Shown: positions 1 to 22,800, counted from the whole stretch's first letter. The stretch: 63,053 nt of DNA, filler included, from Reclinomonas americana ATCC 50394 (GCA_048213135.1; 17 parts of 14 records of this genome joined end to end with filler, not necessarily neighbours in it), one strand, 5' to 3'. Numbers and translations are program-made. The notes: generated from the letters alone by a model not told the origin.

Positions 1-51
<51 letters not shown>

Positions 52-1085: not shown

Positions 1086-4000
1086 TCACAACTCCAACGT
1101 GAACTGCCCACACGCCTCACGAATGGCTCGCATTCTGTCGAGCACCTCCTGTGCCGTAGGGCGATCGATGTCGCGCCGAAGGCTCATGCACCGCATGCCG
1201 AGCTCGAACATTGGTTCGGCAATGCGCGGCGTCCACTCCACGCCACCATCCACCAGCTCCATGACGTGCAGTGAGGCAGGCGAGCGATCCCAGGCGAGGG
1301 ACCACTCGCCCACTGTCAACACGGGTTTGGCGGTGACCAGCTGCACCAGCACCACGCCCATGCTGTACACATCGTGGTCCGGCAGTGGGCGTCTCGCCCG
1401 GATGGCCAGTGGATCCATATAGTCGAGTGTGCCGGCGACGGTGGTCGACTGGGAGAGGGGAGAGAGTGAGATAAAGGGCGTGAGAGGAGAAGGAGAAGAA
1501 TAACCGACCTTGCCATCTGCAATCGACCGCGCGATGCCAAAGTCACCGAGACATGGCTCGAAGCGGTGATCGAGCAGCACGTTGGCGGGTTTGATGTCGC
1601 GATGCACCACGTTGTTCTGGTGAGTGGAGAAAAGGGGAAAACAAGTGAGAGAAGGATCAGTAACGAACAGCACGACACGGAATGAGGAGTGTGGTGCGTG
1701 GAAAGAACGGCAAGGGGCAGAAGGAGAGTGAATGAGTGGACAAGAGGGAAGGAAGCGAGAGAGAAGAGCAAGACAGTTGATGAGCATCATGTTGAATGGG
1801 CGTGAAGAAAGGACGTGAGAAAGTGTGTGTGAGAGAAAGAGAGACGGAGGGAGGGGGGGAGTGACGAAGAACACGAGGCTTGCCAACGATCGCTGGCTGC
1901 TGCGTGAATTATAGTCGGGAAGCAGAGGATTCGAGAGACTGCCAGCAAAGAGTGAGAAGGAGATGCACGAGAGAAGAAGTGCTGAAGCAATGTGCAAGAT
2001 TGATTGAGACGGAGATCATTCTAACAGCGGACCTCGTCAAAGAAGTGGAGCAGAAAACATGAGTGTTCGCGAGAGACAAAAATAATGGAAGAGTCACAGG
2101 AGTGGCACGAGGGAAGCAGAGTGTAAGGATGACTGAGAGGGATATATTTCACGCAGCTGACCTTGTGAAAGAAGTGAAGCAGAGAACATGAGGGTTTGCG
2201 AGACAAGATGAGCACGAAAGAGTGACGAGAGGAAAAGAGAAACAGGGGCTCACGCTGAGAAAAGGATGACTTAGAGAGAGATCATTCTCACGCAGCGGGC
2301 CTTGTGAAAGCATTGGAGCAGAAAACATGGGGATTTGAGAGACAAGAACGGGACAAATGAATTACGAGGGGTAAAGAGGAAAGAGACCTGATGGAGAGTG
2401 AAAGAAAGACTGTGAAGGAGACTATTCTCATGCAGCGAACCTTGTGCAAGAACGCCACCGCCTCGGCCAGTCCGAGACCAATCTGCACACGCTGCACGAC
2501 AGAGAGGGGTGCCTGACCGGCACGTGGCAGAAGCAACAGATCCTCCAGGTTGGGGACCCTGTGTGCTCAACAGTGAGATGATGATGGAAAAGAAGAAGGG
2601 GAAGGAGAGAGTGAACGCACTGCAGGGCCTTGTACACGAGACAGCGTGCCTTGTCGTCGCCCACCGAGTAGCCGACAAGAGGCACAATGCGACGGTCACG
2701 CAGGCGTCCGAGGGTGGCGACCTGCAAGAAGGATGTGGATAAACAGAGGCAATGAAGAGGAGAGAGGAAGAGACAGACCTCACTCTCAAACGACTCCATC
2801 GTCCACGGTGCATCGGGGTCGAGCACCTTGATGGCCACATGCATCTCGCGAAGGAGGGTGATGAAGACGGCACCCTGACGACCCTCGCCGACCATCAGGC
2901 GTGGGGAGAAGGAGTCGGTGGCGTGCACGATCTCGGGCCACTCGAAGCGCTGTACGGCAGTGTCGACTGAGGAATGAGAGGGAAGGGAGTGAGATATGGC
3001 GCAGCTAAGAAGGAGATGATATGCATGCAGAGTAAAGAGACGCAGACCTTGAGCGAGGAGGAGTTCTTGTCGGAGTTGGGAGACGAGTTGATCTCTTTCT
3101 TGAAGCTTTACGGCGAGGTCGTCCTTGTCACGCAGAGCCACATTCAACTGGGAGGCGATTCGATCCCTCTCGGCCTGCAGTTGGGCATACGCTCGCTGTC
3201 CCTCAACATGCGCTTGCTGCCATTGCGTTACGGCTTGCTGCAGTTGCACCACTTGTTGCTGCTCTGCAGTATGCGCTTGCTGAAATTGGGTGACTTGCTG
3301 CTGCAGCTGAGCATTCTTCTGCTCCTCATCGACCTTGCCATGTTGCAGCTCAGCATTGGTATGTTGCAGCAGGGCCACAATGTCCTCGTGCTCTCGTCGC
3401 TGTCGATCCCACTCTCGCTGCTGTTGCTCCCGCTCTTGCTGAGCTGCAGCGAGATCGCGCTGGAATTGGGCAACCTGACGGGCCATGCTGTCGTCGTCGA
3501 CCACCTGGACACGAGGGAGAAGGAAAATTAAATGCAGGATGCACTCACGAACAGAGTCAACTCACCTGGCGTGCAGGCACTGCGTGTTGTGCAGAGCGAT
3601 ACCCGCAGGCACACATATGGAACAACAGTGTGAGAAGAAACAGCATCAGTTGAACAAACAATAGGAAACCAAACCTGCAGGTGGAGGAGGTGGGGGAGAT
3701 TGCGCCAGTTGTTCTTGTTGTTGTTGACTTGATGGTGCTGGCTCCGCGGCGAAGCGGTCGAGTAACTCGGCCACTTGCTGCTTCTCGTTGTCGCGTGCCA
3801 ACTGAGCTGCTGTCTTGCCAACCTTAGTGACCATGGGAATGAGGTCGGGAAAGCGAGTGGCGAGGAGTCGCACAATGGCTTCCTGGCCATTCATGGCAGC
3901 ATAGTGTAGTGCAGTTACACTGTGACAGTAGCGCGCCCGCACCATCTCGGGCAGAAATCGTCGCTCATCGGCAAGTAACCACTCCACCACTTGCAAATGT

Positions 4001-4360
4001 CCATTCAAGGAAGCCGTCATCAGCGGCGTCCAGCCATGGTCGGTGATCAATAGTGCGAGTTGCGGCCCAACACCACTCTCCTCCCACAGATACTCCAACA
4101 CAGAAAGATGGCCTTCGCAGGCAGCCCAGAGAAATGCCGAGCCACCTTCACTCATCTCCTCGTTCTGCAGCAGCGTCTGTGCGCCCTCACTCGCCACCAA
4201 CTCGCGCAGTGCTTGCACATCGCCTTCCAACCCCATCTCGAATGCTTTCATCCTAAGCGGTTGACTGCCAGTTCAACAAAACCACAAACAACGAGAGTGT
4301 GAGTGAGTTGATGAGTCGCAATCTGACAACAACAACATGACACAGACAAGCACACCTCAT
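1086..4360 (-). CDS. Ankyrin-repeat / coiled-coil / Pelle-IRAK-RLK-type Ser/Thr kinase, copy 1 (multi-exon)
   Basis: Start micro-exon ATG AG|gt at 4360. ANK exon ~4266-3680 (GWTPLMTAS, TALHYAA, GKTAAQLA). Q-rich coiled coil ~3504-3048. Kinase exons ~2967-2780 (FEWPEIVHATDSFSPRLMVGEGRQG, VAIK), ~2721-2620, ~2558-2441, ~1616-1510 (HRDIKPANVLLD, GDFGIAR) and ~1449-1086 (STTVAGTLDYMDP, DVYSMGVVL, RPT). GT-AG phases checked at several junctions. Confidence 0.9.
2030..2450 (-). repeat. ~140-bp degenerate tandem repeat (4 units) that begins at a kinase exon/intron junction
   Basis: A CAAG|GT(T/C)CGCTGC...GAGAAT-like motif recurs at ~2441, 2301, 2162 and 2032. Confidence 0.75.
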
Positions 4361-4796
4361 TTTCTCGACGCGAATGCCAGCAGAGACACTCGACGTCGCA
4401 CACAGACACACGACACTGCCTTCTCCTTGCCCTGTTCCGCGTGTCCTGTTACATGCTGCGACGTCCGTTGCCTTGTCCACACGCAAAACACGCCAAGCAC
4501 TTTCCTCACTTGCATTCACTCAAAACTGCCAACAGACCCCCAGAAACCACCAACATTGGACCTCACAAAAGCATGCGCACTTCGAAGTCGCAGCTCCGGA
4601 TATCGATCCTGCATCACTTGCACCGCCATTCTCTGCGCAGCTGCATCAAGCAGCCCTGTTTCCTCTTCATCGCCCTCACATAGTCATCAACATCCTCACA
4701 ACTAATCCCGCAAGTAGACAGGAAGAGCGTCGTCCTGACAGCCTTGAGCAAAAAAGCTGTCAGATCCCGGCGTCGACTTGTCACACGAAACCCGTC

Positions 4797-7569
4797 ATGC
4801 AGCAAGACGCAAACCCGTGAGTCTCTCTCCTCCTCCTCCTCCCCCTCCTCCTCCTCCCTTGTTCTCTTCTCCTTCTCCCTCTTCTTGTTCTTCTTCTTCT
4901 CCTCCTTAAGGCATTCATCACACCGAAACCCTCACTCTTCGCTCTGTGTGCCTGCAGTGCTCGACAAAAGGCATGGGAGCTGGCGCGAAGAGGCGATGTG
5001 GACGCGCTGCGTGAGTTGGTGGAGAGCGAAGGCGGTCAGACGCTGCTCGACCGGAACGAAATGGAGGAGGACGGTGGCGGCTCGGCCTTTTACTTTGCCG
5101 CCTGGCAAGGCCATCTCGACGTGTTGGAGTTCCTCATGGAGGAGAGCGGTGTTGGTCCGCAGCTTGCGCAGAAGCTTACCGATCATGGCTGGACGCCGCT
5201 GATGAAGGCAGCCGACAATGGACACTTGCAAGTTGTGGAGTGGTTGCTGGCGGATGAGCGACGCTGTCCGCCACAGACGGCTCGGGCGGTCGCGCATCAT
5301 ACCTACACCTACCCGCAATCCACGGCACTGCACTTTGCCGCCTCACAAGGCCACGAAGCGATTGTGCGGCTGCTAGCCACTCGCTATCCCGATCTCATTC
5401 CCATGGTCGACTGCAACGGGAAGACGGCGGCGCAGTGGGCACGCGACGCGGGCAAGCGTGAAGTGGCTGATTTGCTCGATGGAATGTTACGTGCGCCACA
5501 GGCGCAGAGACCACGGCCAGTGATCTCTACTCGTCGGTCGGCGCAGCAGAGTGGTTGTGTGGTTCTCTCCTCCTACTTCTCCTCCTTATTCTTGCTCTTG
5601 TTCCTTTACTCCTTCTTCTTCTTCTTCTTCTCCTCCTCCTCTTCTCTCCTCCTCCTCCTCCTCCTCCTCCTCCTCCTCCTCCTCCTCCTCCTCCTCCTCC
5701 TCCTCCTCCTCCTCCTTCTCTCTCACCCTCCTCCTCCTCCCTCGCTCCCTTCCCCCTCCTCCCACCCCCCTCCTTCCCCCTTATTCCCCCTCATCCTTCC
5801 CCCTTATTCCCCCTCCCTTTCCCCCACAGCACCCTCCTCCAATCCCTCCAAACCCGCTTCGCCGACGCCCAGCGCCACGTCGAATCGCACGTCACCCCCG
5901 CCCACGCACAAATCATCGCCGACTGCCTCCGCCACTTCACCGAGCTCCTCGGACCCGACGACACCGACTGGACACTACGTGCCGCACATACCCACGCCAT
6001 CTGCCTCTCTCACCTCGACGACGATCAACACCGCGCACTGGCCGTCTACGAGGACACATTGGCGCGTCGTCGTCGATTGCTGGGTCACGACCATCGCAGT
6101 ACGCTCCTTTCGGCCTCGGATACGGGTCATGCGTTGAGCGTGGTCGGACGGCATGAGGAGGCCGTGGCGCTGTTGCGCGATACGCTGGCGCGGCAGGTGG
6201 AAGAGGTTGACATACGAAGGACCATGTATCACTTGGTGACTGCGCTGGCCGCTGTCGGTCGACGACAAGAGGCGGTCGACGTGGCGTTCGACTTGTTGGT
6301 GCGACAGCGGCAAGCACTCGGCGACGATCATGTTGAAACGCTGACAACCATGTACACAGTGGCCGTGCATCTCGTGCACCTCGGCGGCCGCTACAACTTG
6401 CAGACGGCAGAGGCGTTGTTCAGGGATGCGAAGTGGCGCGCAGTGCAGGCGCTCGGCGCCGACCACTGGATCTCCACCAATTCACGAATGGGTCTGGAGA
6501 GTGCGAGCGGTCATCTCGCGGCTGCTGAGAGTGGTGCGGCTTCACACACTCTCCTACCATGCACTCGTTGCACTCACTTTTCCGCACCGTGCAGAAGTCA
6601 TCAAGATCCATCACATGGCACGCCTGAGTGCCCACATGGCACGCCTGAGTGCCGTAGAACTGGCGGCCTTTGTCGTCGAGCTTGAGGCGATCGTGTATCG
6701 GCGACGCGAGATTCTTGGCGCGAAGCATTCTGAGACCATCTCGGCGGAGACGGATCTCATGAGAGCACGCTCCGCTCTTGCTTCGCGCATACAGCAGCAC
6801 GAGGCAGTGGCCGTTGGTTTGTATGCGTGCGCTCACTGCCCCCGCCTTGCACCGTTGGTTCATAACAAGTCTGCGCACCGCAGAGCCACCGGTACCGGCA
6901 CTGGCGCGCCTGTTGGCTGTCGAAGCCCGCGCAAACGACGCCGCTGCGCTCTTTTACGCGCAGGATTACGCCGCCGCCGCAACTGCGTTCGAGCAGTGCT
7001 GGGCGGATTACGTTGCCTTGCGAGGCGCCGACGACGCCTGCGCCCTGCAAACGGCCTACTCGCTGGCGGCATGCCATGTGCGGAGGGGCCGCCATGCCGA
7101 GGCCTTGCCCGTTTTCCAGGATGTCCTGGCTTGCCGGCGTCGCGTTCTCGGCGACGATCATCGCGAGACGCTGCTCACCGCCGCCGATGTCGGCAACACG
7201 CTAGCCACACTCGGTCGACACGATGAGGCGATCCCTTTGCTTCGCGATACGTTGGAGCGACAGACGCACGCACGACTGCGCATGCATAGTGTCAAGGATG
7301 CGGTGCGGACGTATCAGTATCTGGCCGCCGCGCAACCTGCTCGATCGCCACAGGCTGCGGCCGGCAGCGGTGGAGCGGTCGTTTTTAGTCGGTTTGTGGC
7401 GTGCTGCAACTGCACGGAGAGTGGATTGGAGTGGTGCTATCTCATGGCGTGCGGTCATGGCAATTGTCGGGAATGGTTTGTGTGCCGCGCAATTGGCCAG
7501 GGTGGTTTGTCGCTCACGCTACGGGTGCGCGTGCAGTCTTGCTGCGGCGCTTCAGGAGCACATGGCCAG
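4797..7569 (+). CDS. Ankyrin-repeat + TPR (kinesin-light-chain/TPR_10-12-like) protein, 3' end runs into the linker
   Basis: MQQDANP|gtgagt start exon. ANK exon from 4959, paralogous to the kinase genes. TPR exons ~5830-6530, ~6595-6813 and ~6884-7569 with motifs such as RRRLLGHDHRSTL, RQALGDDHVETL and RRRVLGDDHRETL. The phase of the ANK-TPR junction was not resolved. Confidence 0.8.
5630..5716 (+). repeat. (CCT)n microsatellite in an intron
   Basis: Direct inspection. Confidence 0.95.
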
Positions 7570-7830
7570 NNNNNNNNNNNNNNNNNNNNNNNNNNNNNNN
7601 NNNNNNNNNNNNNTTAATTAATTAANNNNNNNNNNNNNNNNNNNNNNNNNNNNNNNNNNNNNNNNNNNNAAAAGGGGGAAGCAAAGGGAAAGGGGGGAGA
7701 AGGGAAAGGGAGAATGAGGGCGTTGGAAAGTATGAATCATGCAATTTTCGGGTCCAGAAATGAAAAAAAAAAGAGAAAGAAAACGCGAAGGATGGGAGTA
7801 ACAACTCAAACGTCAGACCACGAAACGCAC

Positions 7831-8704
7831 CTGTTCGACGCTGCACACAGCAGCACGCGGTGGTCAACATTTCGACGTGTGCCGCAGAAGAGCTGACAGA
7901 TGATCTCCACCACGGTGGCGCTCTTGCCAGTGCCGGGTGGTCCCCAGATCAGCAGAGGCGGCAATTGGTCGCCTTCTGCGCTTCAGGGGTGAGATCCTGT
8001 TCCTTCTCCCCCCACCCTTCCCCCCACCAACCATTCGGGATCGTCGCACTATCAATGGCGCGATGCTGCCGCTGATTCGGCACCAGTCCACTGTAGAAGC
8101 GGTCGATCGGCGGGGCCGACAGCTGCAGTGCCAGGCCGATCTCGTCTTGCTCGGCCGTGAACTCGGGGAAGAGCAGGGTGCGGTAGACGTGCTCGGATTC
8201 GCGGTCGTCGTTGCAGCGGAGTGGGATTTGTTCGAGGGACCAGTATTGGCTGCGAAGAGGGGGAAGGGAGGGGAAGGGGGAAGGGAGGGGGAAGGGGAAG
8301 GGAAGGAGAGGGCGAGGGGGAAGAGAAAGAGAAGTTAGCACGTAACCCGTTCGAGAGAACGAGAAGAAGAGAGCACAATAAAACAAGAGGTCGAAGGAAA
8401 GAGAGTGAGGAAGCAAACCAGTTCCGCCTCCTAAAATGAAGTGACGACAAGCTTGCAAACGAGAGCACCAGGAGACAAGAAATTAAGAATATGGAATGCA
8501 AAAAAAAGTGACGCGCAGTGTAGAGGCGCAGTCGTCGCGCGACAAGTCCACAAACACTGTCACTCACCGAGAGGCCTCTCGGTATCACGTAGTGCATCCG
8601 CTTCCCTCTCTCTCTCACTCTCTCAGTAAATTGCTGCAACTCCCCTCTCTCTCCAAAGCTCAATCTGTCGCATACTGACAGACGTGGCATCCCACTCTCC
8701 ATCA

Positions 8705-8737
<33 letters not shown>

Positions 8738-11700
8738 CCTGACACACTCTCACTCCACACCGAGAGACAGCATACTCTCTCCATCTTTCTCTCTCTCGCA
8801 GAAAACCGGTAACTCACTGCAACCCTCCCTCTCTCTCGCACACACGCACGCACACACATATCACACGTACACACTGCATCAGTGTACGATTCGCAAGACA
8901 TTGATTGACAAGATGAGGCCTTTCTATCCCTATCCGTTCTCGTCAAAAATTGCTCACGCCCACTCTTTGTCCTGCTCTCTCTTCCCTTCCCCCACCCTTT
9001 CCCTTCCCACCCTTCCCCTGCGTGCGCACCGTCTCACCGGCAACCGATTGGCCCTGAAAAACACATTGTAGTATCGATTCGGTTCAAACAGCGCCGACTC
9101 GAACTGCGGGCTGGGGCACACGAGTACGCTGTCAAAGTTCAGCTCGTGAATGATGCCCTCCCACAGCAGGCGCGGCCGGGCGTCGTCGACGGCGTGAATG
9201 TACACCGAGTCACCTGGGCGCGCAAAGGGAGACGGAGGGAGAGAGGGGGAGGGAGGGCCAGGGAGTGAGAGGGAGGGAGGGAGGGAGGGAGGGAGATGGA
9301 AGGAGGGGGTGAGAAAGAGAGGGAAAAGAGAAGAGAGGGAGAGGGAGTGAGAAACAGAATGAGAGGGAATGAGAGAAAAAAGAAAAGAGAAAAGAGAATG
9401 AGAGGGAGCGAGAAAGAAATGAGATGAAGTGAGGAGAATGCGAGTGAGTGAAAAGGAAATGAGAGGGAGAAAAGAGAGAAAAAAAGAGGAAGACAATGTG
9501 AGAAAGAAAGAAAACAGGGAACAGAAAGAGAGAGAGTGAGAAAGAGAATGAGAGGGAGTGAGAAAGAATGAGAGCGAGTGAGAAAGAATGAGAGGGAGTG
9601 AGAAACAGAATGAGAGGGAATGAGGAAGAGAATGAGAAGGAGTGAGAAAGTGAATGAGAGAAAATTAGAAAGAGAATGAGAACGAGTGAGAAAGAGAATG
9701 AGAGAGAGAAGAGAATGAGAAGGAGTGAGAAAGAGAATAAGAGAGAGAAGAGAACAAGAGAGAGAGAGAGAAGAGAATGAGAGAGAAAGAGAGAAAAAGA
9801 ATGAGAGGGAGCGAGAAAGAGAATGAGAGGGAGTGAGAAAGAATGAGAGGGAGTGAGGAAGAGAATGGGTGAGAGAAAACAGAATGAGAGAGGGTGCGAT
9901 AATGAGAGAAAGTGAAAAAGACAATGAGAGGGAGTGAGAACGACAATGCGAAGGCAGGAGAACGAGAATGAGAGGGAGGAAGAAAGAAGAGAGAGAGATA
10001 GAGAGAGAGAGAGAGGACGAGAGAAGGAAAAGGGAGAGAGGCAGAAGAACGATTGAGAAAAACAGAACAACGAAAGAAAGAGAGAAAAAGAAAAGGAGAA
10101 AAGTCACACAAAGAGAAAAGCAGAGAGAAAAAAAGCGAGAGAAACACAGAACGAAAAGGAAAGAGAGAAAGAGGAGAGAAGCTGGCAAGAAGAACATCAA
10201 CTGGAAGTGCGCGAACCTCGCATAACGGAGGGGCGACCCTCGGACAGATTCGGCACCGGAACCTCGTATAGCTCTTCGGCGTTGGGGCGGCTCATCATGC
10301 GGCGCAGCTTCTCCGTCACGCGGTACGTCTCAATCTCCTGGCTCGTGTACACGTCTTCGAGCAGGAGGAGCAGGTTGAAGTGCACGGCATAGGTCTCAAA
10401 GTGGAGGCGACCCATTTCTGCACAATGACAAGTGTGAGACGCTGTCTTGGCAGAGAGTGCCACAACGCACGCACTCTCCAGCTCCGCCAGCACGGCTGGC
10501 ACGTCCAGATCCTCCGGCAGGTCATAGAAGGGCAGCTGGAATTGATAGATGGGTTTGCTGTGCGACACAAGAGTGAATACAAGGACGATTCACAACCCCC
10601 TTGACCCCAGAGAGACAGAGCATGTGAAGGCAGACCACGTCCATGTATCTGAAACGCACAAGAGAGAAAGACAGAGGCTCCCTGACACAATCCCCTGCAC
10701 AGCAACTCATGAAGGAGTGAAAGAGATGGCAAAGCAAGAACTGAGAGAGAGCGCCGCCAAGTTGACCACGAAAACGCATGAATCTGACAGGCAGAGGGGA
10801 GAGAGAAAGAGAGAGGGAGAGAGAGAGAGAGACAAAGAGAGGCTGAAAGAGAGAGCAACAGAGCTTCTGCAAGGCAGACCAAGTTGCGTCCAAATACTTG
10901 ACACGCACTTCGGAGAGAGCAAGAGGGGAAGAGACAGCTTCTCCAAACCAGACCACGTCAACTCCACGAACAGAGGGGGTGTGTGAGAGAGAGGCAGAGA
11001 GATATGGCAACGCATGAAGATGAGATCACGAGACTCTCAAAGAGAGCCTCTCAACTCAGACCACTTCAATCTACCGCACTTGGCACGGACATGAGTGAGA
11101 CAGATGGCAAAACACGAAAGGAAGAAAAGCAGAAAAGAACAAAAGAGAGAGAGAGAGAGCTGATCCAAGTCAACCCGATGACTTTGCCATGCGCTGTCGT
11201 AACAGAGAGAGGCAGACACTGAGAGAGGAGTTCTCCGACTTCAGCACTTGCGCTTGGCATACAGACAAGAGATACACAAAGAAAAGCAAGAGCGGGAGTG
11301 CGGAAAACAGAGTACAAGTCAGATCACGTCAAGTACATGCGTTTTACACGACGGGGGAGATAGAGCCAAGATGTCGACGAAGAGACAAAAAGAACAAACA
11401 CGAAAGACATCGTACGAGAGACTAGATGCAACACAATGCGAACCCCTTCCTCTCATCTCTTCCCCCTTCGCCCTTCCCCCCATTCCCCTTCCCCCTCCCC
11501 CCTTTACCCCATTACTTACTTCCTTCGATCCCCCTTCTGGGCACCGCCGTAGAACGGCACTCCGGGCACCACCTCCCAGTACTGCCCGTTGAGCTTGATC
11601 CGCACCGAGTCGGTGCGGGTGAGCTGGAAATCCTCCGCTCTCCCCGCGTGATGCCCACCGCCGCGCCCACCTCGACCACCTCGCCCGCCTCCACGTCCAC

Positions 11701-13944: not shown

Positions 13945-14863
13945 TGCACACACAAACACACAAAGGCACACAAAGGCACACAAAGTGAGTGACTTGAGGG
14001 CCAAAAGCGAGCGCGCAAATGTATTGCTGCTGTTATTGTCAGGCGCAAACAATGCATCATTCTCACACTCACTCTCACACACTAGATACACACAAAGAGA
14101 GACAGCGAGGCGAGTAAAACACCAGTAAACGCGCATGCAAACAGCAGACAAGTCGAATTGCATATTGCACACGAGGAAAAAACAAGACGTAGAAAGGAGT
14201 GGGAAAGTGTGTGCATGAGAGAGAGAGAGAGAGCAAGGCCAGGCAGTTCGTGTGAGTGTGCGTGCAAGTGAGAGGCAGCATGTGTGGGTGACAGAGTAAG
14301 AGAGTGACAGCTCGTGAAGAGCAGAGCAACACACATACAAACGCGCACACAAAGAGAGAAAGAAGACAAGGAGGCAGAGGGTGACACTTGCAGAGAGAGC
14401 CTCAGAAGGAGAAGGCACACATTCAAACATAGGAGTAATGTGCGTGTGTGTGAGAGCGAGAGAAGACAAGAAGGCAGAGGGCGACACAGAGACTCAGAGG
14501 GGAAGACAACACGAGAGACAAGAAGTGACACACGCACACGCGCCTCTCTCTCACACACACACTTGCACACTGTCACAAACAACTTGCACACAGATAACGC
14601 AAGACAAGAAGAGTGAGGAAGCTTGCATTCAGACACACTGTCTCTCTCTCTTCTCTCTCTCTCTTATACAAACACAAACGAGAGACAGAGAGAGAGGGAA
14701 CACAACAAGAGTCTTGCAGTGAGAGAGAGAGAGAGACACACACAGAGAGAGAAGACACACAGACACACACTCTTGCACACACATAACACAAGACAAGAAG
14801 AGACAAGAACTAGTTGCAGTCAGACACACAGTTGCCTCTCTCTTCTCTCTTATACACACACAC

Positions 14864-14907
<44 letters not shown>

Positions 14908-15086
14908 GAACAACAACGACGACNNNNNNNNNNNNNNNNNNNNNNNNNNNNNNNNNNNNNNNNNNNNTTAATTAATTAANNNNNNNNNNNNNNNNNNNNN
15001 NNNNNNNNNNNNNNNNNNNNNNNAGTGAGTGAGAGAGAGAGAGAGAGAAGGAGAGAGAGGGAGAGGGAGAGAGAGAGAGACAGAGA

Positions 15087-15450
15087 GTGCAAGTGTCAAT
15101 GTGCAAGTGTGTGCAAGTGTGTGCAAGTGTATGCAAGTGTATGCAAGAGTGTGCAAGTGTGTGTGCAAGTGTGTGTGCAAGTGTGTGCAAGTGTGAGAGA
15201 AAGAGAGAGAGAAAGAGAGAGACAGAGAGTGCAAGTACAATGTGCAAGTGTGTGCAGTGTGTGCAAGTGTGTGCAAGTGTGCATGTGTGTGTGTGCAAGT
15301 GTGTGTGTGCAAGTGTGAGAGAAAGAGAGAGAAAGAGAGAGAGTGCAAGAGTGTGTGCAAGTGTGTGTGAGAGAGAGAGAGAGAGTGCAAGTGTACTATG
15401 TTCATGTGCAAGTGTGTGCAAGTGTGTGCAAGTGTGTGCAAGTGTGTGAA
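15087..15450 (+). repeat. 10-bp minisatellite (TGCAAGTGTG)n mixed with (GA)n and (TG)n
   Basis: Direct inspection. Confidence 0.9.
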
Positions 15451-15719
15451 AATGTGTGAAAGTGTGTGTGTGTGTGTGTGTGTGTGCACGTGGTGTGTGC
15501 GCACCTGGGAGGTGAAGAACTTGGTTGTCCTGTCTGTGTGGAATGCGACTTGGGATCCGGCAAGTGTGAGATGGCCCTGGTTTTGGTTTGCTGCGATGGG
15601 AGGTGAGTTTTGTGTGTGCGTGTGTGAGCGTGGTTGCTGCGATCGGAGCGTTGCAACTGAATTTGAAGTTTTTCATTGTGTGCTGCAGCTGATTCCTGCT
15701 CGGGATTGCTTTGTGTGCG

Positions 15720-15770
<51 letters not shown>

Positions 15771-16074
15771 TGTGTGTGCGTCTCAATGTTGGTCTGTGCG
15801 TTGCGCTGGATCGTTGTGCGATGCAGACAATTGTCGACGTCGCGACTTCCGACGTTCATCGGTCTTTGGTGTGAGACAGAGGGAAGCTGCGGGAGGTGGC
15901 GAGCGTCTGCGTATGCAGGCATGCAGGGTGGATCGTCTCTCATCGACTTCGTTTCTCACTCTCGTCCGCCATGAAACAGGACACGCGGAAGAAAAGCTGG
16001 CCAAAGCTGCAGTGTTCTGTGTGTGCGTGTGTGTCTGTGTGCGAGTGTCCCTGCTGGATACCGGGTTGAGAAGA

Positions 16075-19000
16075 ATGAGGTGTGCTTGCGCGTGTCTTCT
16101 GATGTTGCCAGAAGGCGCACTCACTCTCTCGTTGTTTGTTCTTTTGGTTGAACTGGCAGTCAGCAGCAGAGAAAGAAAGCACACGAGATGGGGCTGAGTG
16201 GCGATGTGAAGGCACTGCGCGAGTTGGTGGCGCGTGAGGGCGCACAGACTCTGCTGCAGAGAGAGGAGATGAGTGATGGTGGCTACTCGCCATTTTACAG
16301 CGCCGCTTCCCGTGGCCATCTCTCTGTGTTGGAGTATTTGTGGGAGGAGAGTGGCGTCGGACCACAACTCGCACAAGTGGTCGCCGACTCTGGCGTGACG
16401 CCACTGACGGCGGCTGCCGCGAATGGACATTTGCAAGTGGTGGAGTGGTTGCTGGCCGATGAGCGACGATGTTCGATGGAGATGGTGAGGGCGGTCGACA
16501 AGTACGGTGATACTGCGCTGCATTATGCTGCCGCGGAAGGCCGCGAGGCCATTGTGCGACTCCTCGCCACTCGCTTCCCCGATCTGATTTCCATGGTCGA
16601 CAAGAGGGGCAAGACGGCGGCTCATTTGGCACGGGCGCGGGGCAAGCAGCAAGTGGTCGAGTTGCTCGATCGCCTCGCTGCGCAGTCAGCACCGCCGAGT
16701 CAACAACAACAAGAACAACAACAACAACAACAACAAGAACAACAAAAACAAGAACAACAGGCGCGATCTCCCCCACCTCCTCCACCTGCAGGTTTTTTGG
16801 TTGCCCTGTTATTGTTCAGCTTGTGTTCTTTCTTCTCACACTGTTCCATGTGTGTGTCTGTGTGTATCGCCCTGCACAACGCGCAGTGCCAGCACGCCAG
16901 GTGAGGCTAACGCTGTTCGTGAGTGCATTCATCTCCTATCCTGCATTTAATTCTCCTTCTCCCTCGTGTCCAGGTGGTCGACGACGACACCGTGGCCCGT
17001 CAGGTTGCACAACTCCAGCGCGATCTCGCCGCAGCACAAGAGGAGCGTGATCAACAGCAGCGGGAATGGGACCGACAGCGACGAGGGCACGAGGACATTG
17101 TGGCCCAGCTGCAGCAAGCCAATGCTGAGCTGCAGCGTGGCAAGGTCGATGAGGAGCGCAAGAAAACCCAGCTGCAGCAGCAAGTCACTGAATGGCAACA
17201 AGCGCATGCCAGAGAACAACAGCAAGTGGTCCAACTACAGCAGACTGTCACGCAGTGGCAGCAAGCGCATGCTGAGGGACAGCGAGCGTTTGCCCAACTG
17301 CAAGCCGAGCGAGATCGAATCGCCTCCCAGTTGACTGTGGCTCTGCGCGACAAGGACGATCTCGCTGCTCAGCTGCAAGAAAAGGATCAACTCGTCTCCC
17401 AGCTTCGACAGGAACTCCTCCTCGCTCAAGGTCTGCATGCCTGTCTTCTCTTTCCTTGATCTCACCGTTTCTCACTCCCTTCCCTCTCATTCCACAGTAG
17501 ACACTGCCGTGCAGCGCTTCGAGTGGCCCGAGATCGTGCACGCCACGGACTCCTTCTCCCCACGCCTCAAGGTCGGCGAGGGCGGGCAGGGTGCCTTGCT
17601 TATCACTCTCCTCCGCGAGATGCACGTGGCCATCAAGGTGCTCGACCCCGCTGCACCGTGGACAATAGAGTCGTTCGAGAGTGAGGTCTGTGTCTCTTCC
17701 TCTTCTGATTTCTTCTCTCTCTCCCTTTCTCCTCATCCTTCTTCCCATCTTGCAGGTTGCCACCCTTGGTCGCTTGCGTGACCGTCGTATTGTGCCTCTC
17801 GTCGGCTACTCGGTGGGCGACGACAAGGCCCGCTGTCTCGTATACAAGGCCCTGCAGTGCGTTCTCCACTTTCCCTCCTTCTTCTCCGTCGTCGCCTCAC
17901 TGTGAGAAGCACACAGAGTTCCCAACCTGGAGGATCTCCTGCTACTGCCGCGCGCCGGTCGGGTACCACTTTCTGTCGCTCAGCGTGTGCAGATTGGTCT
18001 CGGACTGGCCGAGGCTGTGGCGTTCTTGCACAAGGTTTGCTGCATGAGAATAGTCTCCCGTTCTCTCTTTTTTCCTCTCTCCTTTAGCTCTCTGTTCTCT
18101 TTTCTCCTCGTCACTCTTTGTGCTGTTCTTGTCTCTCTCAAACCCTAATGTTCGCTTGTGCCGTTTCTTCGACAAGGTCCGCTGCGTTAGAATGATCTCC
18201 CTCTCAGTCATTCTTTTCTCAGCATGAGCCCCAGTTTCTCTATTCTCCTCGACACTCTTTCGTGCTCATCTTGTCTCGCAAACTCTCATGCTTTCCGCTC
18301 CATTTCTTTCACAAGGTCTGCTGTGGGAGAATGATCTCCCTCCCAGTCATTCTTTTCTAAGCATGAGCCCCAGTTTCTCTATTCTCCCTGACACTCTTGC
18401 GTGCTCATCTTGTCCCGCAAACCCTCATGTTCTCTGCTTCACTTCTTTCACAAGGTCCGCTGCGCGAAATCTACATCCCTCTCAGTCCTCCTTGCACTCT
18501 GCTTCTCTCGTGTCACTCCCTGTGACTCTTCCATTATTTTTGTCTCTCGCGAACACTCATGTTTTCTGCTCCACTTCTTGTACAAGGGCCGCTGCATGAG
18601 AACCTTTTTCTCTGCCTTCTTTGCTCACTTCTTCTCTCGTGCCTCTCCATGTGACTCTTTCGTTGTCCTTGTCGCTGGCAGTCTCTCGTTTTCACTGCGC
18701 ATGCTGCGCAACTTTAGTTCACTGACCACATGAGTGGCAGCCAGCGATCGCGAACGAGCCTCGTGCTCTTTGTCACGCTCCACCCACTCTCCGTCTCTCT
18801 CGCTCTCGCTCTCACTTGCATTCTCTCTCTCAAGCTCTTTTCTCTCACCTTCTTTCACGCTCTTTCAACATGATCCTCGTCAAGTGTTCTGCTCTCCTCT
18901 CTCGTTTCTTTCCATCCTATCCAATCATTCAATCTCCTTTCTCCGTCAGCCTTGTTTCCACGCGCAGCACGCCTCGTCACTTGTCGTGCTCTTCGTTGTT

Positions 19001-19569
19001 GATCCTTGGTTCACTTTTTTTCCCCCTTCTATCCACTCACCAGAATGATGTGGTGCATCGCGACATCAAGCCCGCCAACGTGCTCATCGATCACCGCTTC
19101 GAGGCATGCCTCGGTGACTTTGGCATCGCGCGGTCGATTGCCAGTGGCAAGGTCGGTTCTTCTTCGTTTTCTCTCACGCCCTCTCTTTCTCATCCTCCCT
19201 CGTCTCTTCCAGTCAACCACCGTCGCTGACACGCTTGATTACATGGATCCACTGGCCCTCCGCGCCCGACGTCCACTGCCCAAGCACGACGTGTACAGTA
19301 TGGGCGTGGTGCTGGTGCAGCTGGTCACCGGCAAGCCGGTGGTAACAGTGGGCGAGTGGTCTCTGGAATGGGACGAGTCGCCGGCTTCACTGCGCGTCTT
19401 GGAGCTGGTGGATGGTGGCGTGGAGTGGACGCCGCGCATCGCGGAGCCCATGTTCGAGCTCGGCATGCAGTGCATGAGTGTGCGACGAGACAGACCGACT
19501 GCGCAGGAGGTGCTGGAGAGGATGCGGGCCATTCGTGAGGCGTGTGGGCAGTTTACGTTGGGGTTGTGA
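16075..19569 (+). CDS. Ankyrin-repeat / coiled-coil / Pelle-IRAK-RLK-type kinase, copy 2 (inverted paralogue of 1086-4360)
   Basis: Same exon layout as copy 1: ATG AG|gt at 16075, ANK exon 16160-16791, coiled coil ~16974-17430, kinase exons ~17500-17685, 17756-17857, 17917-18034, 19044-19151 (HRDIKPANVLID, DFG) and 19213-19569. Confidence 0.9.
18025..18605 (+). repeat. ~140-bp degenerate tandem repeat (5 units) starting at the HK|gt splice donor
   Basis: CAAGG..(C/T)GCTG motif at ~18031, 18173, 18313, 18451 and 18583. Confidence 0.75.
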
Positions 19570-19898
19570 GTGAAAGGAGGTGAAGGAGGGTCGTATGCGT
19601 TTAGTGAGCGAGCTCGAAGGCGGACGCTGACGTCGCGTCCCCCCAATAGAACACACAAACGCACAAAACAAACACAAGAGAGTGGTGAGTGTGGGGTGTG
19701 TGCGTGTGTGTTTGTATGTGCGTGTGTGTGTGCGAGAGAAAGATAGAGAGAGACAGAGACCTTTCAGATAGAACTGCGCTGCGTTGAATGGCGCAAGTCT
19801 GGCAGTGATCGCTTACTGACTTCATGGTTCTTGTCTAGCTTTCTGTGGCAACAACACTGGCGTGCTCAGCACCTCATTGAATGTCATCTCCATTTCTC

Positions 19899-22800
19899 AT
19901 GTCTGGCAAGCTGGGCAAGAGAGTTTCCCTGGATGGTCTGGCTGCATCGGCTGCGCTATCCAGCGCTGGAACTTACCCGCCATTGCGCGCTAGCGCTGCT
20001 ACCATGCACCGTCGAGCCTCCCGTTTCGCGCCGGCGTCTGGCGCCGTGGCAAGCGACTCTACGCGTACGGTGGCGATTCTGCCACGTGTTGACTCTGCCG
20101 CCGCGCATTGCTCGGCAGAGAAAGAAGCACTTGCCAGCACTGTGCGTGGCGACGTGTTGAGATCAAGCACGGAAGTGATACGGCTCAGTAGCGAGGCTCA
20201 AACACAACGCGAAAAGAGTGGGTCTGTCAGTCTAAGCGTTCGTACGTTGGCGGGCTCACCCACTCGATCATTTGCCTGGAGCAAAAATCCACACGGCCGT
20301 GCAACAGTCAATCGAGAGAGGTATGTTGAGGTTGTGCTTGTTGCTCTTGTGGGTCAAGACGTTCCTCACGCACAAACGATCGTTGGTTTCGAATGGACGG
20401 CGTGCTTCCGGATACCAGTGCTTGTAAGCAACAGAGTCGAAAAGTGTGGGAGATGGCGAAGGATGGCGATGTGGACCCATCGCGCGAGCCGACGGCGCGT
20501 GAGGGCCCACGCACTCTGCTGGTGAGAGAGGAGATGCTCACGGAAAACTCGGCAGGCCAGATTGCGGCCGGACAAGGGCTCCCCCTAGTCTTGACGGTGG
20601 AGTGCGGAGCCGGACCACATTTCGAGCTCGCAAGTATGGCCGATGACTATGGATGGACACCACTGATGAAGGCTGCCGCTTGCGGGCAGCTGCAAATGAT
20701 AGAGTGGCTGCTTGCAGATGAGTGGCGGTTTCCGCCGGAAAAGGTGCGGGCAGTCACAAATGACCGTGACGCAAATCCACAGTGCACTGCACTTCATTTC
20801 GCTGCTATGAGTGGCCATGAAGGCATTGTGAGACTCCTTGCATCTCGCTTTCCCGACCTCATTCCGATGGTCAACAAGGCTGGCAAGACGGCGGCTCAGC
20901 GTGCACGCGACAATGGCATGCACAGCGCGGCGAAGGTGTTGGAGCACCTCGCGTCGCAGCATCCATCACCACGCCTTTCTCAGCAACAACTACAGCAATC
21001 CCCGCAGTCATCTCTTCGAGTTTCGCAGCCTGTGCGAATATCAGGTGCGATAGTTAACGCTTGAGTTGTTGTTCTCCGTATTCGATTTCCAATTGCTTAT
21101 GTTTGTCGCTCTGAACTAGCAGAGTTTGCTTGTCAAGTGAGCGAGGTACGCATTTCTCTCCGAGCATCGATGAACGTGTTTGCTTCTTCAGCATTATTCT
21201 TACATAAGATGCGCATTACATTCCCATGTACTTGCGATATCCGTTGCCATCATTGCAGATCGTTGACATGTCTGCAGCGCGTCAGCTCGCCGAGAAGGAC
21301 GCAATCATTGCCCGACTCCACGGCGAACTTGCGGCAGCGCAGCAGGAGCGAGAGCAGCAGCAGCAACAGTTGGACCTGCAACGACTTGAGCACGCGGATA
21401 TTGTTGCAGAATTGCAGCGGGCAGTCACGGAGCACGATCAACTGATGGAGGATGAAAGACAGCGTGCCTCTCATGTGCAATGTGAGCTGGATTGTGCTGC
21501 AGTCCAGCTTGCTGTGGCCCTGTGTGAGAGAGACGCCATGGCCGATCGCATAAGTATGTTGCAACAGCACCTGCAAGGGAGAGACGCCGTTCAAGGTTTG
21601 CGTTTTCTTTATCGACTGTTTTCTCTCTCTTCTACGCCAATTTCTATTATTGCAGAGTGGTTTTGTAGTCGGTTTGTAGAGAAAGACTTATTATGTGATT
21701 GCTTTTGCTCATTGCACGCACCAACGCAGTCGACCTCGCCGCTGAGCACGACAGGCCTGCCGTGGTACTCAGTGCATTGCAGTCCGCAGTCGGTGACAAA
21801 CCGGCGGAACGTCAGTCGCTTGCAGCAGTACTCGCTGCTGACAAGGAAATTGTAGCACTCTTTGCTAATCATCAGCAGATCAGTGCAGACTTGCTCACTG
21901 TTCGTGATCGGTGTGTCGCTGAGGAGGATGCTGCGGAGCTTAATCAAGTCAGACTTGAGTTGGCAACTACCATCGCCGACCGTGATCGACTCCGACAAGA
22001 ATTGGCTGAATCGAAGCGTTCCGCATTCACTGTAGCTGCCGATTGCAGCAGTCTGCGTGCGCAGCTTCTGGCAGCCACCGCAGAACGCAGCCAGTTGCGA
22101 CACAGGGTCAGCAGGTTGGAAGGCGAGCTTCGCGCTCTGTTTCATATGGACTTTCTCAGGTCTCTCGTACGTTGCTTCGCTGTTTTCCCTACGTGCTGAT
22201 GTTACTCATCGTTGATAACTGGTGTTCAGTGACCGGCGTCAAATTTTGATGCTGACCGAAGTGGTTCACGAGATTATTCCGCTCGCTCTCGGCTCCCTGC
22301 TGCAACTGCTTGTCGCTAATTTCTTCCCTGACGAATTTCGCATTGAGCAACTGTGCCTCCCTGCTCCGCCGCCGAGGTGCGTGATTGTACTCTCTTCTGA
22401 TTTTGTTTGTTTAGTCTTCATCGGATCATAAATCTTTCTATTACGCGCGTATCAGATATTGTCGAATGTCGCTGGATAAGCGAGGAAACATTCGCATGCG
22501 ATCCGCGGAGCTGTATCCTTCCAACTATGAAGCAGTCTGCAAGTTCAAGCGGAGTGGAGAGACGACGAAGATGGACGTGTCGCTCCTCAGTACTCTACTG
22601 TTGCACGCAAGCTTCGTTTCCGCCGTCGCTTGTCGTGACGTAGATCTTCTCGAGAGCCGCGTGCGCCTCGATCCTGTCACCCACAAAGATCGATTGGCTG
22701 TGCCACTGCTCGCTGAACCGGCGAAGGTAAGCATCGTCGATGAGTATTCATGATCGTGCAAGGAACCCACTCGCTCTCGTCGATGCAGATTCAAGCTGTC

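What the first reader, a model, noticed from the sequence alone, without database searches (positions are those of the whole stretch)
3680..21044. Four-member ankyrin family with a fixed scaffold and a hypervariable binding face (DARPin-like repertoire)
Seen: the ANK exons at ~3680-4266, 4959-5550, 16160-16791 and 20419-21044 keep near-identical scaffold segments (LQVVEWLLADERR and EAIVRLLATRFPDLIPMV in all four; EESGVGPQLA in three). They differ sharply at hairpin and first-helix positions: SAFLWAACEGH / SAFYFAAWQGH / SPFYSAASRGH; HGWTPLMTASLN / SGVTPLTAAAAN; RYCHSVTALHYAAMN / VDKYGDTALHYAAAE / HHTYTYPQSTALHFAASQ. The kinase domains of copies 1 and 2 are far more alike than their ANK faces. 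Known: these are the ligand-contact positions of ankyrin repeats. Inference: diversifying selection on a pathogen-sensor module.
Basis: partly seen in the sequence, partly recalled or inferred. Interest (0 to 1): 0.85.

Follow-up and report, generated by a model that had tools for sequence, protein, structure and literature searches.

The report
Fast-evolving ankyrin binding faces on kinases
A protist-like genome carries a small family of signalling genes whose ankyrin-repeat module keeps a fixed frame, while the residues that would touch a partner change about twice as fast as the genes' own introns, the pattern expected of receptors that keep acquiring new targets.

Summary
Four paralogous ankyrin (ANK) exons lie at the stated coordinates on two contigs of a linker-joined pseudomolecule. 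Each encodes a five-repeat, DARPin-sized domain (AlphaFold pLDDT 94.8; Foldseek TM 0.77-0.88 to DARPins).

Copies c1 and c3 are whole-gene duplicates: ANK, Q/P linker, about 150-residue coiled coil, RLK/Pelle/IRAK-like kinase. All six introns align. Between them the kinase has omega 0.11 and the coiled coil 0.16-0.21. The 25 codons at DARPin-randomised positions have omega 3.3-4.6 (LRT against omega=1, p about 1e-4). They differ at 36 of 75 nucleotides, against 24% in aligned non-coding DNA; 7 of 200,000 resamples reach 36. Exposed back-surface positions are conserved (omega 0.23).

A fifth member, a Reclinomonas americana EST, shows the same pattern.

Caveats:
- Only four DNA copies are available, and a codon-level test is not significant (p=0.12).
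- Deeper comparisons are saturated.
- c4's first two repeats look degenerate.
- c2 carries TPR repeats, not a kinase.

Diversifying selection on the binding face is supported. "Pathogen sensor" is untested: no NOD domain, expression data or partner is known. I rate it a new variant of a known kind.

The parts
3675..4264 (-). c1 ANK exon: N-cap, three internal repeats and C-cap, then a Q/P-rich tail
   Evidence: ORF; Pfam Ank_2 4.5e-20; AF2 pLDDT 94.8, pTM 0.89; splice signals
4356..4360 (-). c1 inferred mini first exon (ATG plus 2 nt) followed by a GT donor; splices in frame to the ANK exon
   Evidence: Conserved with c3 in the pair alignment. Inferred, no RNA evidence.
3048..3504 (-). c1 coiled-coil exon (about 152 residues)
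   Evidence: Translation; omega 0.16 against c3; parallel in-register homodimer model ipSAE 0.59, best control 0.00
1086..2966 (-). c1 RLK/Pelle/IRAK-like kinase in five exons (2779-2966, 2621-2721, 2441-2558, 1509-1616, 1086-1448 including the stop)
   Evidence: Pkinase 1.9e-19; VAIK, HRD and DFG visible in the translation; GT/AG at every junction; PDB best hits FERONIA, SYMRK, IRAK4, LysM-RLK, IRAK1, CERK1
4958..5550 (+). c2 ANK exon, head-to-head with c1 (5' ends about 700 bp apart)
   Evidence: Pfam Ank_2 2.5e-22; splice signals
6023..7260 (+). TPR_10/TPR_12 repeats downstream of c2 on the same strand, running on towards the contig end at 7569. That they form one gene with c2 is inferred.
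   Evidence: TPR_12 2e-12 and 9.4e-22, TPR_10 3e-12 and 5.9e-15
16075..16079 (+). c3 inferred mini first exon (ATG plus 2 nt)
   Evidence: inferred
16160..16791 (+). c3 ANK exon
   Evidence: Pfam Ank_2 2.9e-21; splice signals
16974..17430 (+). c3 coiled-coil exon
17498..19569 (+). c3 kinase in five exons (17498-17685, 17756-17856, 17917-18034, 19044-19151, 19213-19569 including the stop)
20429..21044 (+). c4 ANK exon. Its 5' boundary is uncertain. The N-cap and repeat 1 are degenerate, with Pro/Gly at core positions.
   Evidence: Pfam hits cover only residues 103-204 of the ORF. AF2 pLDDT is 49-81 over the first 70 residues and 87-98 afterwards. Donor.
21208..24285 (+). c4 downstream coding pieces: coiled-coil-like ORFs 21208-21855 and 21699-22199, and a different kinase (23433-23708, 23855-24007, 24028-24285)
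   Evidence: Translations; Pkinase 1.7e-10; PDB best hits are generic, Nek7 and EGFR among others

Best explanation
This is a lineage-specific family of small ANK recognition modules: N-cap, three internal repeats and C-cap, about 165 residues, DARPin-sized. The modules are combined with different output or scaffold parts.

In c1 and c3 the ANK module sits at the N-terminus. It is followed by a Q/P-rich linker, a coiled coil of about 150 residues, and an RLK/Pelle/IRAK-like Ser/Thr kinase with intact catalytic motifs. The coiled coil is modelled as a parallel homodimer.

Shown here: after the c1/c3 duplication the whole gene stayed under purifying selection, except the codons at the concave-face positions. 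Those were replaced faster than neutral DNA.

Inferred mechanism: each paralogue binds a different partner on its concave face. Binding recruits or activates the dimeric kinase, which phosphorylates downstream targets.

The sustained above-neutral rate points to partners that themselves change or are non-self, such as prey bacteria, parasites or viruses. I hold that reading at about 40%. Endogenous partners or addresses get about 35%. The same module has also been shuffled onto TPR repeats (c2) and onto another coiled coil plus kinase (c4).
For: Fold and size:
- Pfam Ank families score above their cut-offs in all four copies.
- The AF2 model has pLDDT 94.8 with five helix pairs.
- The top Foldseek hits are designed ankyrin repeat proteins, mostly five-repeat DARPins of about 157-160 residues, TM 0.77-0.88.

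Whole-gene duplication:
- c1 and c3 align over about 3.4 kb including introns at about 79%.
- GT/AG is conserved at all six introns, and the stop codon is conserved.

Selection, Nei-Gojobori counts for c1 against c3:
- ANK overall: dS 0.35, dN 0.196.
- 25 contact codons: dN 0.93, omega 2.9.
- ANK rest: omega 0.25.
- Coiled coil: omega 0.16. Kinase: omega 0.11 over 293 codons.
- Intron JC distances: 0.13-0.38.

Selection, maximum-likelihood codon models:
- Contact omega is 4.6 (LRT 17.1, p=3.6e-5).
- A literature-derived concave class gives 3.8 (p=1e-4).
- Without the repeat-3 hairpin it is 3.25 (p=0.0018).
- The back surface gives 0.23.
- With one neutral rate shared over 613 codons of the gene, contact omega is 3.26 (p=7.7e-5). 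By the profile, omega 1.5 and 8 are rejected and 2 to 6 are not.
- M2a against M1a gives p=9e-4 with three copies and p=0.004 with four.

Model-free checks:
- Contact codons differ at 36 of 75 nucleotides. Resampled non-coding triplets give mean 18.0, sd 4.2, and 7 of 200,000 reach 36.
- 0 of 20,000 random codon classes reach the observed pN.

Fifth member, the EST-derived P0219: 15 of 19-20 contact positions differ from c1 and c3, against 2-4 of 22 back-surface and 16-17 of 82 other positions.

Kinase type: all 8 of 8 PDB hits for the C-lobe exon and 8 of 8 for the N-lobe exon are plant RLKs, Pto or IRAK1/4.

Coiled coil: the homodimer model has ipSAE 0.59 against a best control of 0.00. That mark was reached by 21 of 30 proteins solved as pairs of one chain and 0 of 23 solved as single chains in microbes. 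In eukaryotes it was 17 of 29 and 0 of 30. The runs agree in at least 98% of contacts, partner pLDDT is at least 88, and contacts follow a heptad spacing over residues 7-152. The model supports binding but does not show it, and coiled coils can pass by likeness to solved ones.
Against: - Only four DNA copies are available.
- The signal for omega>1 rests largely on multi-nucleotide codon changes. 13 of 17 changed contact codons differ at 2-3 bases.
- Counting codons rather than bases gives 17 observed against 11.5 to 14.0 expected under neutrality (13.6 with the whole-gene neutral rate), p=0.02 to 0.16.
- Mismatches also cluster in non-coding DNA: 61 adjacent pairs against 42 expected, and 28 triples against 10.
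- Over all four copies the class omega is 1.29 (p=0.22), and over three copies 1.64 (p=0.046). Older comparisons are saturated.
- These same positions are the most variable in ANK repeats generally (PMC8415598, passages read).
- No expression evidence exists for the window's copies, and no partner is known.
- Gene models are inferred from conservation and splice signals only.
- c4's N-terminal repeats look degenerate.
Confidence: 0.6

Rival explanations
1. Relaxed constraint only. The concave-face positions are structurally unconstrained surface residues that drift neutrally after duplication. Apparent omega>1 comes from clustered (multi-nucleotide) mutation and small numbers.
For: - The codon-level test is not significant with the whole-gene neutral rate: 17 against 13.6 of 25, p=0.12.
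- Clustered mismatches occur in non-coding DNA.
- The four-copy class omega is 1.29, not significant.
- These positions are the most diverse in ANK repeats at large.
Against: - Contact codons differ at 48% of bases against 24% in non-coding DNA, and a resampling that keeps local clustering reaches this in 7 of 200,000 draws.
- LRTs against omega=1 give p about 1e-4 under three class definitions.
- Equally exposed back-surface positions are strongly conserved, omega 0.23.
- Three-base codon changes number 5 observed against 0.64 expected.
Confidence: 0.15
2. Old divergence plus homogenisation. The contact codons diverged long ago and are kept different by selection. Gene conversion between paralogues keeps scaffold, introns and kinase similar. 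The pair therefore only looks young.
For: Non-synonymous difference at contact codons is equally high in every pair (pN 0.39-0.53), whatever the age of the pair, while the rest rises from 0.08 to 0.25.
Against: - Synonymous difference inside contact codons is not raised: pS 0.26 against 0.29 elsewhere, on few sites.
- Divergence of introns and synonymous sites is fairly even along 3.4 kb, with no long identical tracts.
- c1 and c3 share a 5-residue hairpin deletion absent from c2, c4 and P0219.
Confidence: 0.1
3. Endogenous addressing. The variable faces direct otherwise similar kinases to different cellular partners or places, as proposed for the ankyrin-bearing Nek kinases of Giardia. No non-self recognition is involved.
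For: - The Giardia kinome paper reports Nek kinases rich in ankyrin repeats and coiled coils and proposes a targeting role (PMC3218828, passages read).
- No NOD, TIR or death domain is found in these genes.
Against: A sustained above-neutral rate over dS of about 0.35-0.46 is more typical of conflict than of a settled division of labour. This is an inference, not a test.
Confidence: 0.35
4. Artefact: the copies are alleles, collapsed or duplicated assembly products, or contamination.
For: The window is a linker-joined pseudomolecule with many gaps. No reads could be laid on it.
Against: - The copies differ by 21% in DNA with many indels and have different flanks and neighbours.
- All splice sites and frames are intact in c1 and c3.
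- An independent EST from a jakobid encodes a fifth member.
Confidence: 0.02

Closest known systems
Fungal NLR-like STAND proteins with hypervariable ANK/TPR/WD repeats (Dyrka et al. 2014, PMC4986451; passages read)
   Same: Positive selection maps to the concave face (inner helix and hairpin) of ANK repeats. There is combinatorial shuffling of repeat modules with different effector domains, kinases among them. TPR_10/12-type repeats occur in the same repertoire.
   Different: No NACHT or NB-ARC domain was found in these genes. Repeats within a copy are old and dissimilar (at most 12 of 26 residues, at most 49% nt), so there are no highly internally conserved repeats and no sign of repeat-number shuffling. 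Diversity here lies between paralogues. The output is a coiled coil plus an RLK/Pelle-like kinase.
Designed ankyrin repeat proteins (DARPins)
   Same: Same size and shape: cap, three internal repeats, cap, with TM 0.77-0.88. Variation concentrates at the positions randomised in the libraries: 2, 3, 5, 13, 14 and 33. Those numbers are recalled from Binz et al. 2003, which I did not see. They agree with the concave positions in PMC8415598 after a shift of two.
   Different: This family is natural. Positions 9 and 10 and one hairpin length vary too. The module is fused to signalling domains.
RLK/Pelle/IRAK kinases, including plant cytoplasmic coiled-coil kinases
   Same: The closest solved kinases are FERONIA, SYMRK, LysM-RLKs, CERK1, Pto and IRAK1/4. 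The catalytic motifs are intact.
   Different: There is no extracellular or transmembrane part. The sensor is an N-terminal ANK module rather than LRR, LysM or death domains. E-values are weak (2.6e-5 to 0.05), and no tree was built.
ANK-kinase architectures: ILK and TNNI3K (ANK then kinase), RIPK4/ANKK1 (kinase then ANK), Giardia Nek-ANK (PMC3218828)
   Same: ANK repeats and a protein kinase sit in one chain. In Giardia the family is large and fast-turning, with coiled coils in some members.
   Different: ILK and TNNI3K are conserved single genes with no known hypervariable face (recalled). In Giardia the kinase is N-terminal and Nek-type, and the repeats form long arrays. Here the order is ANK, coiled coil, kinase, and the kinase is RLK/Pelle-like.

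Membership tests
Ankyrin repeat domain (Pfam Ank clan) | Profile match above the curated cut-off | tested here: met
   Ank_2 scores 72.4, 79.7, 76.3 and 51.2 bits against a cut-off of 27.3 in c1, c2, c3 and c4
Ankyrin repeat domain (Pfam Ank clan) | Stack of helix-turn-helix repeats with hairpins | tested here: met
   The AF2 model of c1 has pLDDT 94.8 and five helix pairs. At least 500 Foldseek hits have E<=0.001, and the top ones are designed ankyrin repeat proteins, mostly DARPins.
DARPin-like repertoire (works-like, not descent) | Fixed framework with variation concentrated at positions 2, 3, 5, 13, 14 and 33 | tested here: met
   c1 against c3: 17 of 25 such positions differ, against 26 of 143 others. 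This is enrichment, not exclusivity: positions 9 and 10 differ at 6 of 10.
Gene family under positive (diversifying) selection | omega significantly above 1 at a site class | tested here: met
   A-priori class omega is 3.3-4.6, p 3.6e-5 to 7.7e-5. M2a against M1a gives p=9e-4 and p=0.004. The codon-level test gives p=0.02-0.16.
Gene family under positive (diversifying) selection | Excess of replacement change against polymorphism, or the same signal in many members | not testable with these tools
   No whole genome is held, no runs were listed, and no further members were found in the databases.
RLK/Pelle/IRAK kinase family | Active-kinase motifs (Gly loop, VAIK Lys, HRD, DFG) | tested here: met
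   All are visible in the c1 and c3 exon translations; Pkinase 1.9e-19.
RLK/Pelle/IRAK kinase family | Closest relatives belong to the family | tested here: inconclusive
   8 of 8 and 8 of 8 PDB hits are RLK, Pto or IRAK, but E-values run from 2.6e-5 to 0.05. No phylogeny was built. A database search with the C-lobe exon found nothing at E<=1e-5.
NLR / STAND immune receptors | Central NACHT or NB-ARC NTPase domain | tested here: not met
   Among the ORFs scanned from the four genes, only ANK, TPR and Pkinase were found. c2 is cut by the contig end at 7569, so a domain beyond it cannot be excluded.
NLR / STAND immune receptors | Highly internally conserved repeats (fungal type) | tested here: not met
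   Repeats within a copy share at most 12 of 26 residues and at most 49% of bases.
Giardia Nek-ankyrin kinases | N-terminal Nek kinase followed by an ANK array | tested here: not met
   The order here is ANK, coiled coil, kinase. The c1/c3 kinases match RLK/IRAK, not Nek. Only c4's N-lobe lists Nek7 among generic hits.
ILK/TNNI3K-type ANK-kinases | Orthology of the kinase domain | tested here: inconclusive
   The architecture is alike, but neither ILK nor TNNI3K is among the 16 PDB hits. No tree was built.

The most novel reading that the evidence does not exclude
A jakobid-like free-living protist has a natural DARPin-style receptor repertoire. Small ANK modules with hypervariable concave faces are wired through a dimeric coiled coil straight to an RLK/Pelle/IRAK-type kinase. 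This would be a cytoplasmic innate-immune or non-self recognition system that needs no NOD domain, LRR or membrane receptor. It would place variable-repeat plus IRAK-like kinase immunity deep in eukaryote history or show it arising independently.
Probability: 0.15. Interest if true: 0.85.

Novelty: new variant of a known kind. Interest (0 to 1): 0.6.

Why it matters
Binding surfaces of repeat proteins under diversifying selection are the hallmark of recognition repertoires: LRRs in plant and animal receptors, and ANK, TPR and WD repeats in fungal NLRs. This family shows the same signature in a different wiring, ANK directly on a coiled-coil RLK/Pelle-like kinase. The only close relative found is from a jakobid, a lineage with almost no described signalling or immunity genes.

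If the partners prove to be foreign proteins, this would be a new, very compact class of intracellular receptor kinase. It would also be a natural counterpart of the DARPin design principle. If the partners are endogenous, it still gives a clean example of how a kinase family acquires new addresses through a handful of surface codons.

Tried and rejected
- Whole genome: none is held for this window, so paralogues outside the window could not be collected.
- Earlier scan notes: none for this genome or sequence.
- Database searches with the ANK exon were swamped by generic multi-ANK proteins of at most 47% identity. Only one true family member emerged, P0219.
- A 'longer' search with the kinase C-lobe exon found nothing at E<=1e-5. 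This is weak evidence.
- A metagenome scan with family-specific peptide patterns returned 12 loci, all generic ANK of 26-41% identity. They were not used.
- Sequencing runs: none was listed, and no RNA holder was listed.
- A bacterial-type promoter and terminator scan of the c1-c2 intergenic region is meaningless for a eukaryote and was ignored.
- Targeted hypermutation of a DGR-like, adenine-directed kind was considered. Differences at contact codons are 27 transversions and 19 transitions of all kinds, with no adenine bias, and no reverse transcriptase was seen among the ORFs scanned. I rejected it as unsupported.
- Pairwise dN/dS for the older pairs is saturated, with dS from 0.7 to above 1.9 or undefined. 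It is not informative.
- My K1, K3 and K4 segments for dN/dS include 1, 2 and 1 codons that the later splice analysis places at or across exon boundaries. The effect on 293 codons is negligible.
- Literature searches found no description of this family. Searches used 'jakobid, ankyrin, kinase' and 'ankyrin repeat, diversifying selection, protein kinase, gene family expansion, protist'. One search found nothing useful on a Reclinomonas nuclear genome.
- No supplementary files were consulted.

Full report
**What the window is.** The DNA is eukaryote-like, with spliced genes, microsatellites and 52-58% G+C over the region. It is a pseudomolecule: contigs are joined by N44-TTAATTAATTAA-N44 linkers, and there are two gaps of about 910 N. 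Contig 1-7569 holds ANK copies c1 (minus strand) and c2 (plus strand). They lie head to head, with 5' ends about 700 bp apart. Contig 15024-26290 holds c3 and c4 in tandem on the plus strand. Adjacency within each pair is real. The spacing between the pairs is not established. No whole genome is held.

**The observation.**
- tblastn with each copy finds exactly four ANK loci in the window.
- Pfam Ank families score well above their cut-offs in all four.
- Amino-acid identity to c1 is 74% for c3, 65% for c2 and 53% for c4.
- The quoted scaffold motifs are exact in 3 of 4 copies, 1 of 4 and 3 of 4. The other copies differ by one to three residues.

**Structure.**
- An AlphaFold model of c1, built from a 10-sequence alignment, has pLDDT 94.8 and pTM 0.89. 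It shows five helix pairs: cap, three internal repeats, cap.
- The best Foldseek matches are designed ankyrin repeat proteins, mostly five-repeat DARPins of about 157-160 residues, with TM 0.77-0.88.
- c4, modelled with the same alignment, has pLDDT 49-81 over its first 70 residues and 87-98 afterwards. Pfam matches cover only its C-terminal half.
- The family is therefore three intact modules plus one whose N-cap and first repeat look degenerate.

**Gene architecture.**
- c1 (4455 down to 1068) and c3 (15970 to 19587) are colinear over the whole gene, introns included, at about 79% DNA identity. Their flanks are unrelated.
- Both genes keep GT/AG at all six introns and the same stop codon.
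- Both share a conserved ATG plus two bases followed by a GT donor about 90 bp upstream. This would splice in frame to the ANK exon. It is inferred, with no RNA evidence.
- The deduced protein runs: ANK module, Q/P-rich linker, 152-residue coiled coil, protein kinase with Gly loop, VAIK, HRD and DFG.
- The kinase C-lobe exon finds FERONIA (4 sequences), SYMRK (2) and IRAK4 (2), 8 of 8 hits. The N-lobe exon finds LysM receptor kinases, CERK1, Pto and IRAK1, 8 of 8 hits. The E-values are weak, from 2.6e-5 to 0.05, so I call it RLK/Pelle/IRAK-like, not a proven member.
- Two copies of the coiled coil are modelled as a parallel, in-register dimer with heptad-spaced contacts over residues 7-152. 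The ipSAE is 0.59 against a best control of 0.00.
- That mark was reached by 21 of 30 proteins solved as pairs of one chain and 0 of 23 solved as single chains in microbes, and by 17 of 29 and 0 of 30 in eukaryotes. The runs agree in at least 98% of contacts, and partner pLDDT is at least 88. This supports dimerisation but does not show it, and coiled coils may pass by likeness to solved ones.
- c2's ANK exon is followed on the same strand by TPR_10/TPR_12 repeats up to the contig end. That they form one gene is inferred.
- c4 is followed by other coiled-coil-like ORFs and a different kinase, whose best solved matches are generic.

**Is the face really hypervariable?** I fixed the contact class before looking at the counts. 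It comprises repeat positions 2, 3, 5, 13, 14 and 33 in a numbering where TPLH is 6-9. These are the positions randomised in DARPin libraries. The numbers are recalled from Binz et al. 2003, which I did not see. They correspond, after a shift of two, to the most diverse and interaction-enriched concave positions in PMC8415598 (passages read).

Between c1 and c3:

| Position class | Positions that differ |
|---|---|
| Contact positions | 17 of 25 |
| Positions 9/10 | 6 of 10 |
| Exposed back-surface positions (18, 21, 25, 26, 29, 31) | 4 of 28 |
| Remaining positions | 16 of 105 |

- Fisher's test of contact against all others gives p=1.3e-6. Contact against back surface gives p=7.5e-5.
- None of 20,000 random 25-codon classes reaches the observed non-synonymous difference.
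- The only close database relative is P0219, 154 residues and 69-70% identical to c1 and c3. Its source names it as a Reclinomonas americana EST.
- P0219 repeats the pattern against c1 and c3. It differs at 15 of 19-20 contact positions, 2-4 of 22 back-surface positions and 16-17 of 82 others.

**Is it faster than neutral?** Nei-Gojobori estimates for c1 against c3:

| Region | dS | dN | omega |
|---|---|---|---|
| Kinase (293 codons) | 0.46 | 0.050 | 0.11 |
| Coiled coil | 0.485 | 0.079 | 0.16 |
| ANK scaffold | - | - | 0.25 |
| ANK contact codons | 0.35 (exon-wide) | 0.93 | 2.9 |

Intron JC distances are 0.13-0.38.

My own Goldman-Yang-type likelihood implementation gives the following.
- Contact omega is 4.6 (LRT against 1 = 17.1, p=3.6e-5).
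- The literature-derived class gives 3.8 (p=1e-4). Dropping the possibly misaligned repeat-3 hairpin gives 3.25 (p=0.0018).
- Positions 13/14 alone give 6.0, the hairpin positions alone 3.2, and the back surface 0.23.
- One neutral rate shared across ANK, coiled coil and kinase (613 codons) gives 3.26 (p=7.7e-5). The profile rejects omega 1.5 and 8 but not 2 to 6.
- The site models M2a against M1a give p=9e-4 with three copies and p=0.004 with four. About 15% of sites fall at omega 3.5-5.6, and most of the high-posterior sites are contact or 9/10 positions.

**Results against this reading.**
- The a-priori class omega falls to 1.64 (p=0.046) with three copies and 1.29 (p=0.22) with four, where branches are saturated.
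- Counting changed codons rather than bases, 17 of 25 compares with 11.5 to 14.0 expected under neutrality. That gives p=0.02, 0.12 or 0.16, depending on the neutral rate used.
- The excess therefore lies in multi-base codon changes. One-, two- and three-base changes number 4, 8 and 5 observed, against 8.1, 4.9 and 0.64 expected.
- Clustered mismatches also occur in the non-coding alignment: 61 adjacent pairs against 42 expected, and 28 triples against 10. Multi-nucleotide mutation is a known source of false positives in such tests (recalled, paper not seen).

**A model-free check.** I compared the 25 contact codons with triplets resampled from the aligned introns and upstream DNA of the same gene pair. 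This keeps whatever local clustering the mutation process and the alignment produce. The contact codons differ at 36 of 75 bases. The resampled sets have mean 18.0 and sd 4.2, and 7 of 200,000 reach 36. So these codons have changed about twice as much as non-coding DNA, while everything around them is conserved.

**Other patterns.**
- Non-synonymous difference at contact codons is equally high in every pair (0.39-0.53), whatever the age of the pair. At other codons it grows from 0.08 to 0.25. This fits either repeated replacement or old, selectively kept differences on a homogenised scaffold.
- I favour repeated replacement. Synonymous difference within contact codons is not raised. Divergence is fairly even along the gene. 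c1 and c3 share a derived hairpin deletion.
- Differences at the contact and 9/10 codons together are 27 transversions and 19 transitions with no adenine bias, so nothing points to a templated mutator.

**Interpretation.** The best-supported reading is a small lineage-specific family of ANK recognition modules whose concave face is under diversifying selection. In c1 and c3 the module is mounted on a dimerising coiled coil and an RLK/Pelle-like kinase. It has also been shuffled onto TPR repeats and onto another kinase.
- Shown: the fold, the architecture from ORFs and splice signals, the purifying selection on scaffold, coiled coil and kinase, and the above-neutral change at contact codons in the c1/c3 pair.
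- Inferred: that the face binds partners, that the partners differ between paralogues, that binding controls the kinase, and the nature of the partners.

**Pathogen sensor?** The idea is compatible with the rate pattern and the kinase type but is not tested. No NOD, TIR or death domain was found, no expression or population data could be had, and only five members are known. An endogenous-addressing role, as proposed for Giardia's ankyrin-bearing Nek kinases (PMC3218828, passages read), remains a serious alternative.

**Comparison with known systems.** The nearest described phenomenon is positive selection on the concave face of ANK and TPR repeats in fungal NLR-like proteins (PMC4986451, passages read). 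This family differs in three ways.
- It lacks a NOD domain.
- Repeats within a copy are dissimilar: at most 12 of 26 residues and at most 49% of bases.
- Its diversity lies between paralogues.

In geometry and in the choice of variable positions it behaves like a DARPin library. My literature searches found no description of such a family in jakobids or other protists. I rate it a new variant of a known kind, of moderate to good interest. It is limited mainly by the small number of copies available.

Noticed in passing
window 41784-46076 (-), contig 41559-47231: One intron-less open frame of 1431 residues encodes a NACHT NTPase (residues 271-435, E=1.8e-8), a pentapeptide stretch and at least 11 WD40 repeats. 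It is an NLR-like STAND protein. A 126-nt (one WD repeat) tandem array of 4.4 copies at 79% identity lies at 43223-43773. It could be a real protist gene, a transferred gene or a contaminant contig.
   Followed up: partly
window 7570-7669 and 15 further places: Contigs are joined by N44-TTAATTAATTAA-N44 linkers carrying stops in all six frames. There are two longer N runs at 37386-38294 and 47232-48144. The order and spacing of contigs in the window should not be trusted.
   Followed up: yes
window 1996-2452 (c1) and 18025-18679 (c3): The long intron after kinase exon K3 holds about three decayed tandem copies (period about 139 nt) of the exon's 3' end together with its donor site. They appear as offset blastn alignments and as repeated FLHK-like peptides in the ORF listing. 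They are possible decoy donors.
   Followed up: no
window 29447-30181 (+): An open frame matches the arginase family (E=6.3e-31). It is unrelated to the finding.
   Followed up: no
window 5566-5825: A (CTC)n and 12-nt or 23-nt low-complexity tract lies between the c2 ANK exon and the TPR region. The ANK and TPR parts are in different frames, so an intron must lie here if they form one gene.
   Followed up: partly
window 25400-26290: A minisatellite-like array fills the end of the c3/c4 contig. It is seen as long periodic open frames on both strands.
   Followed up: no
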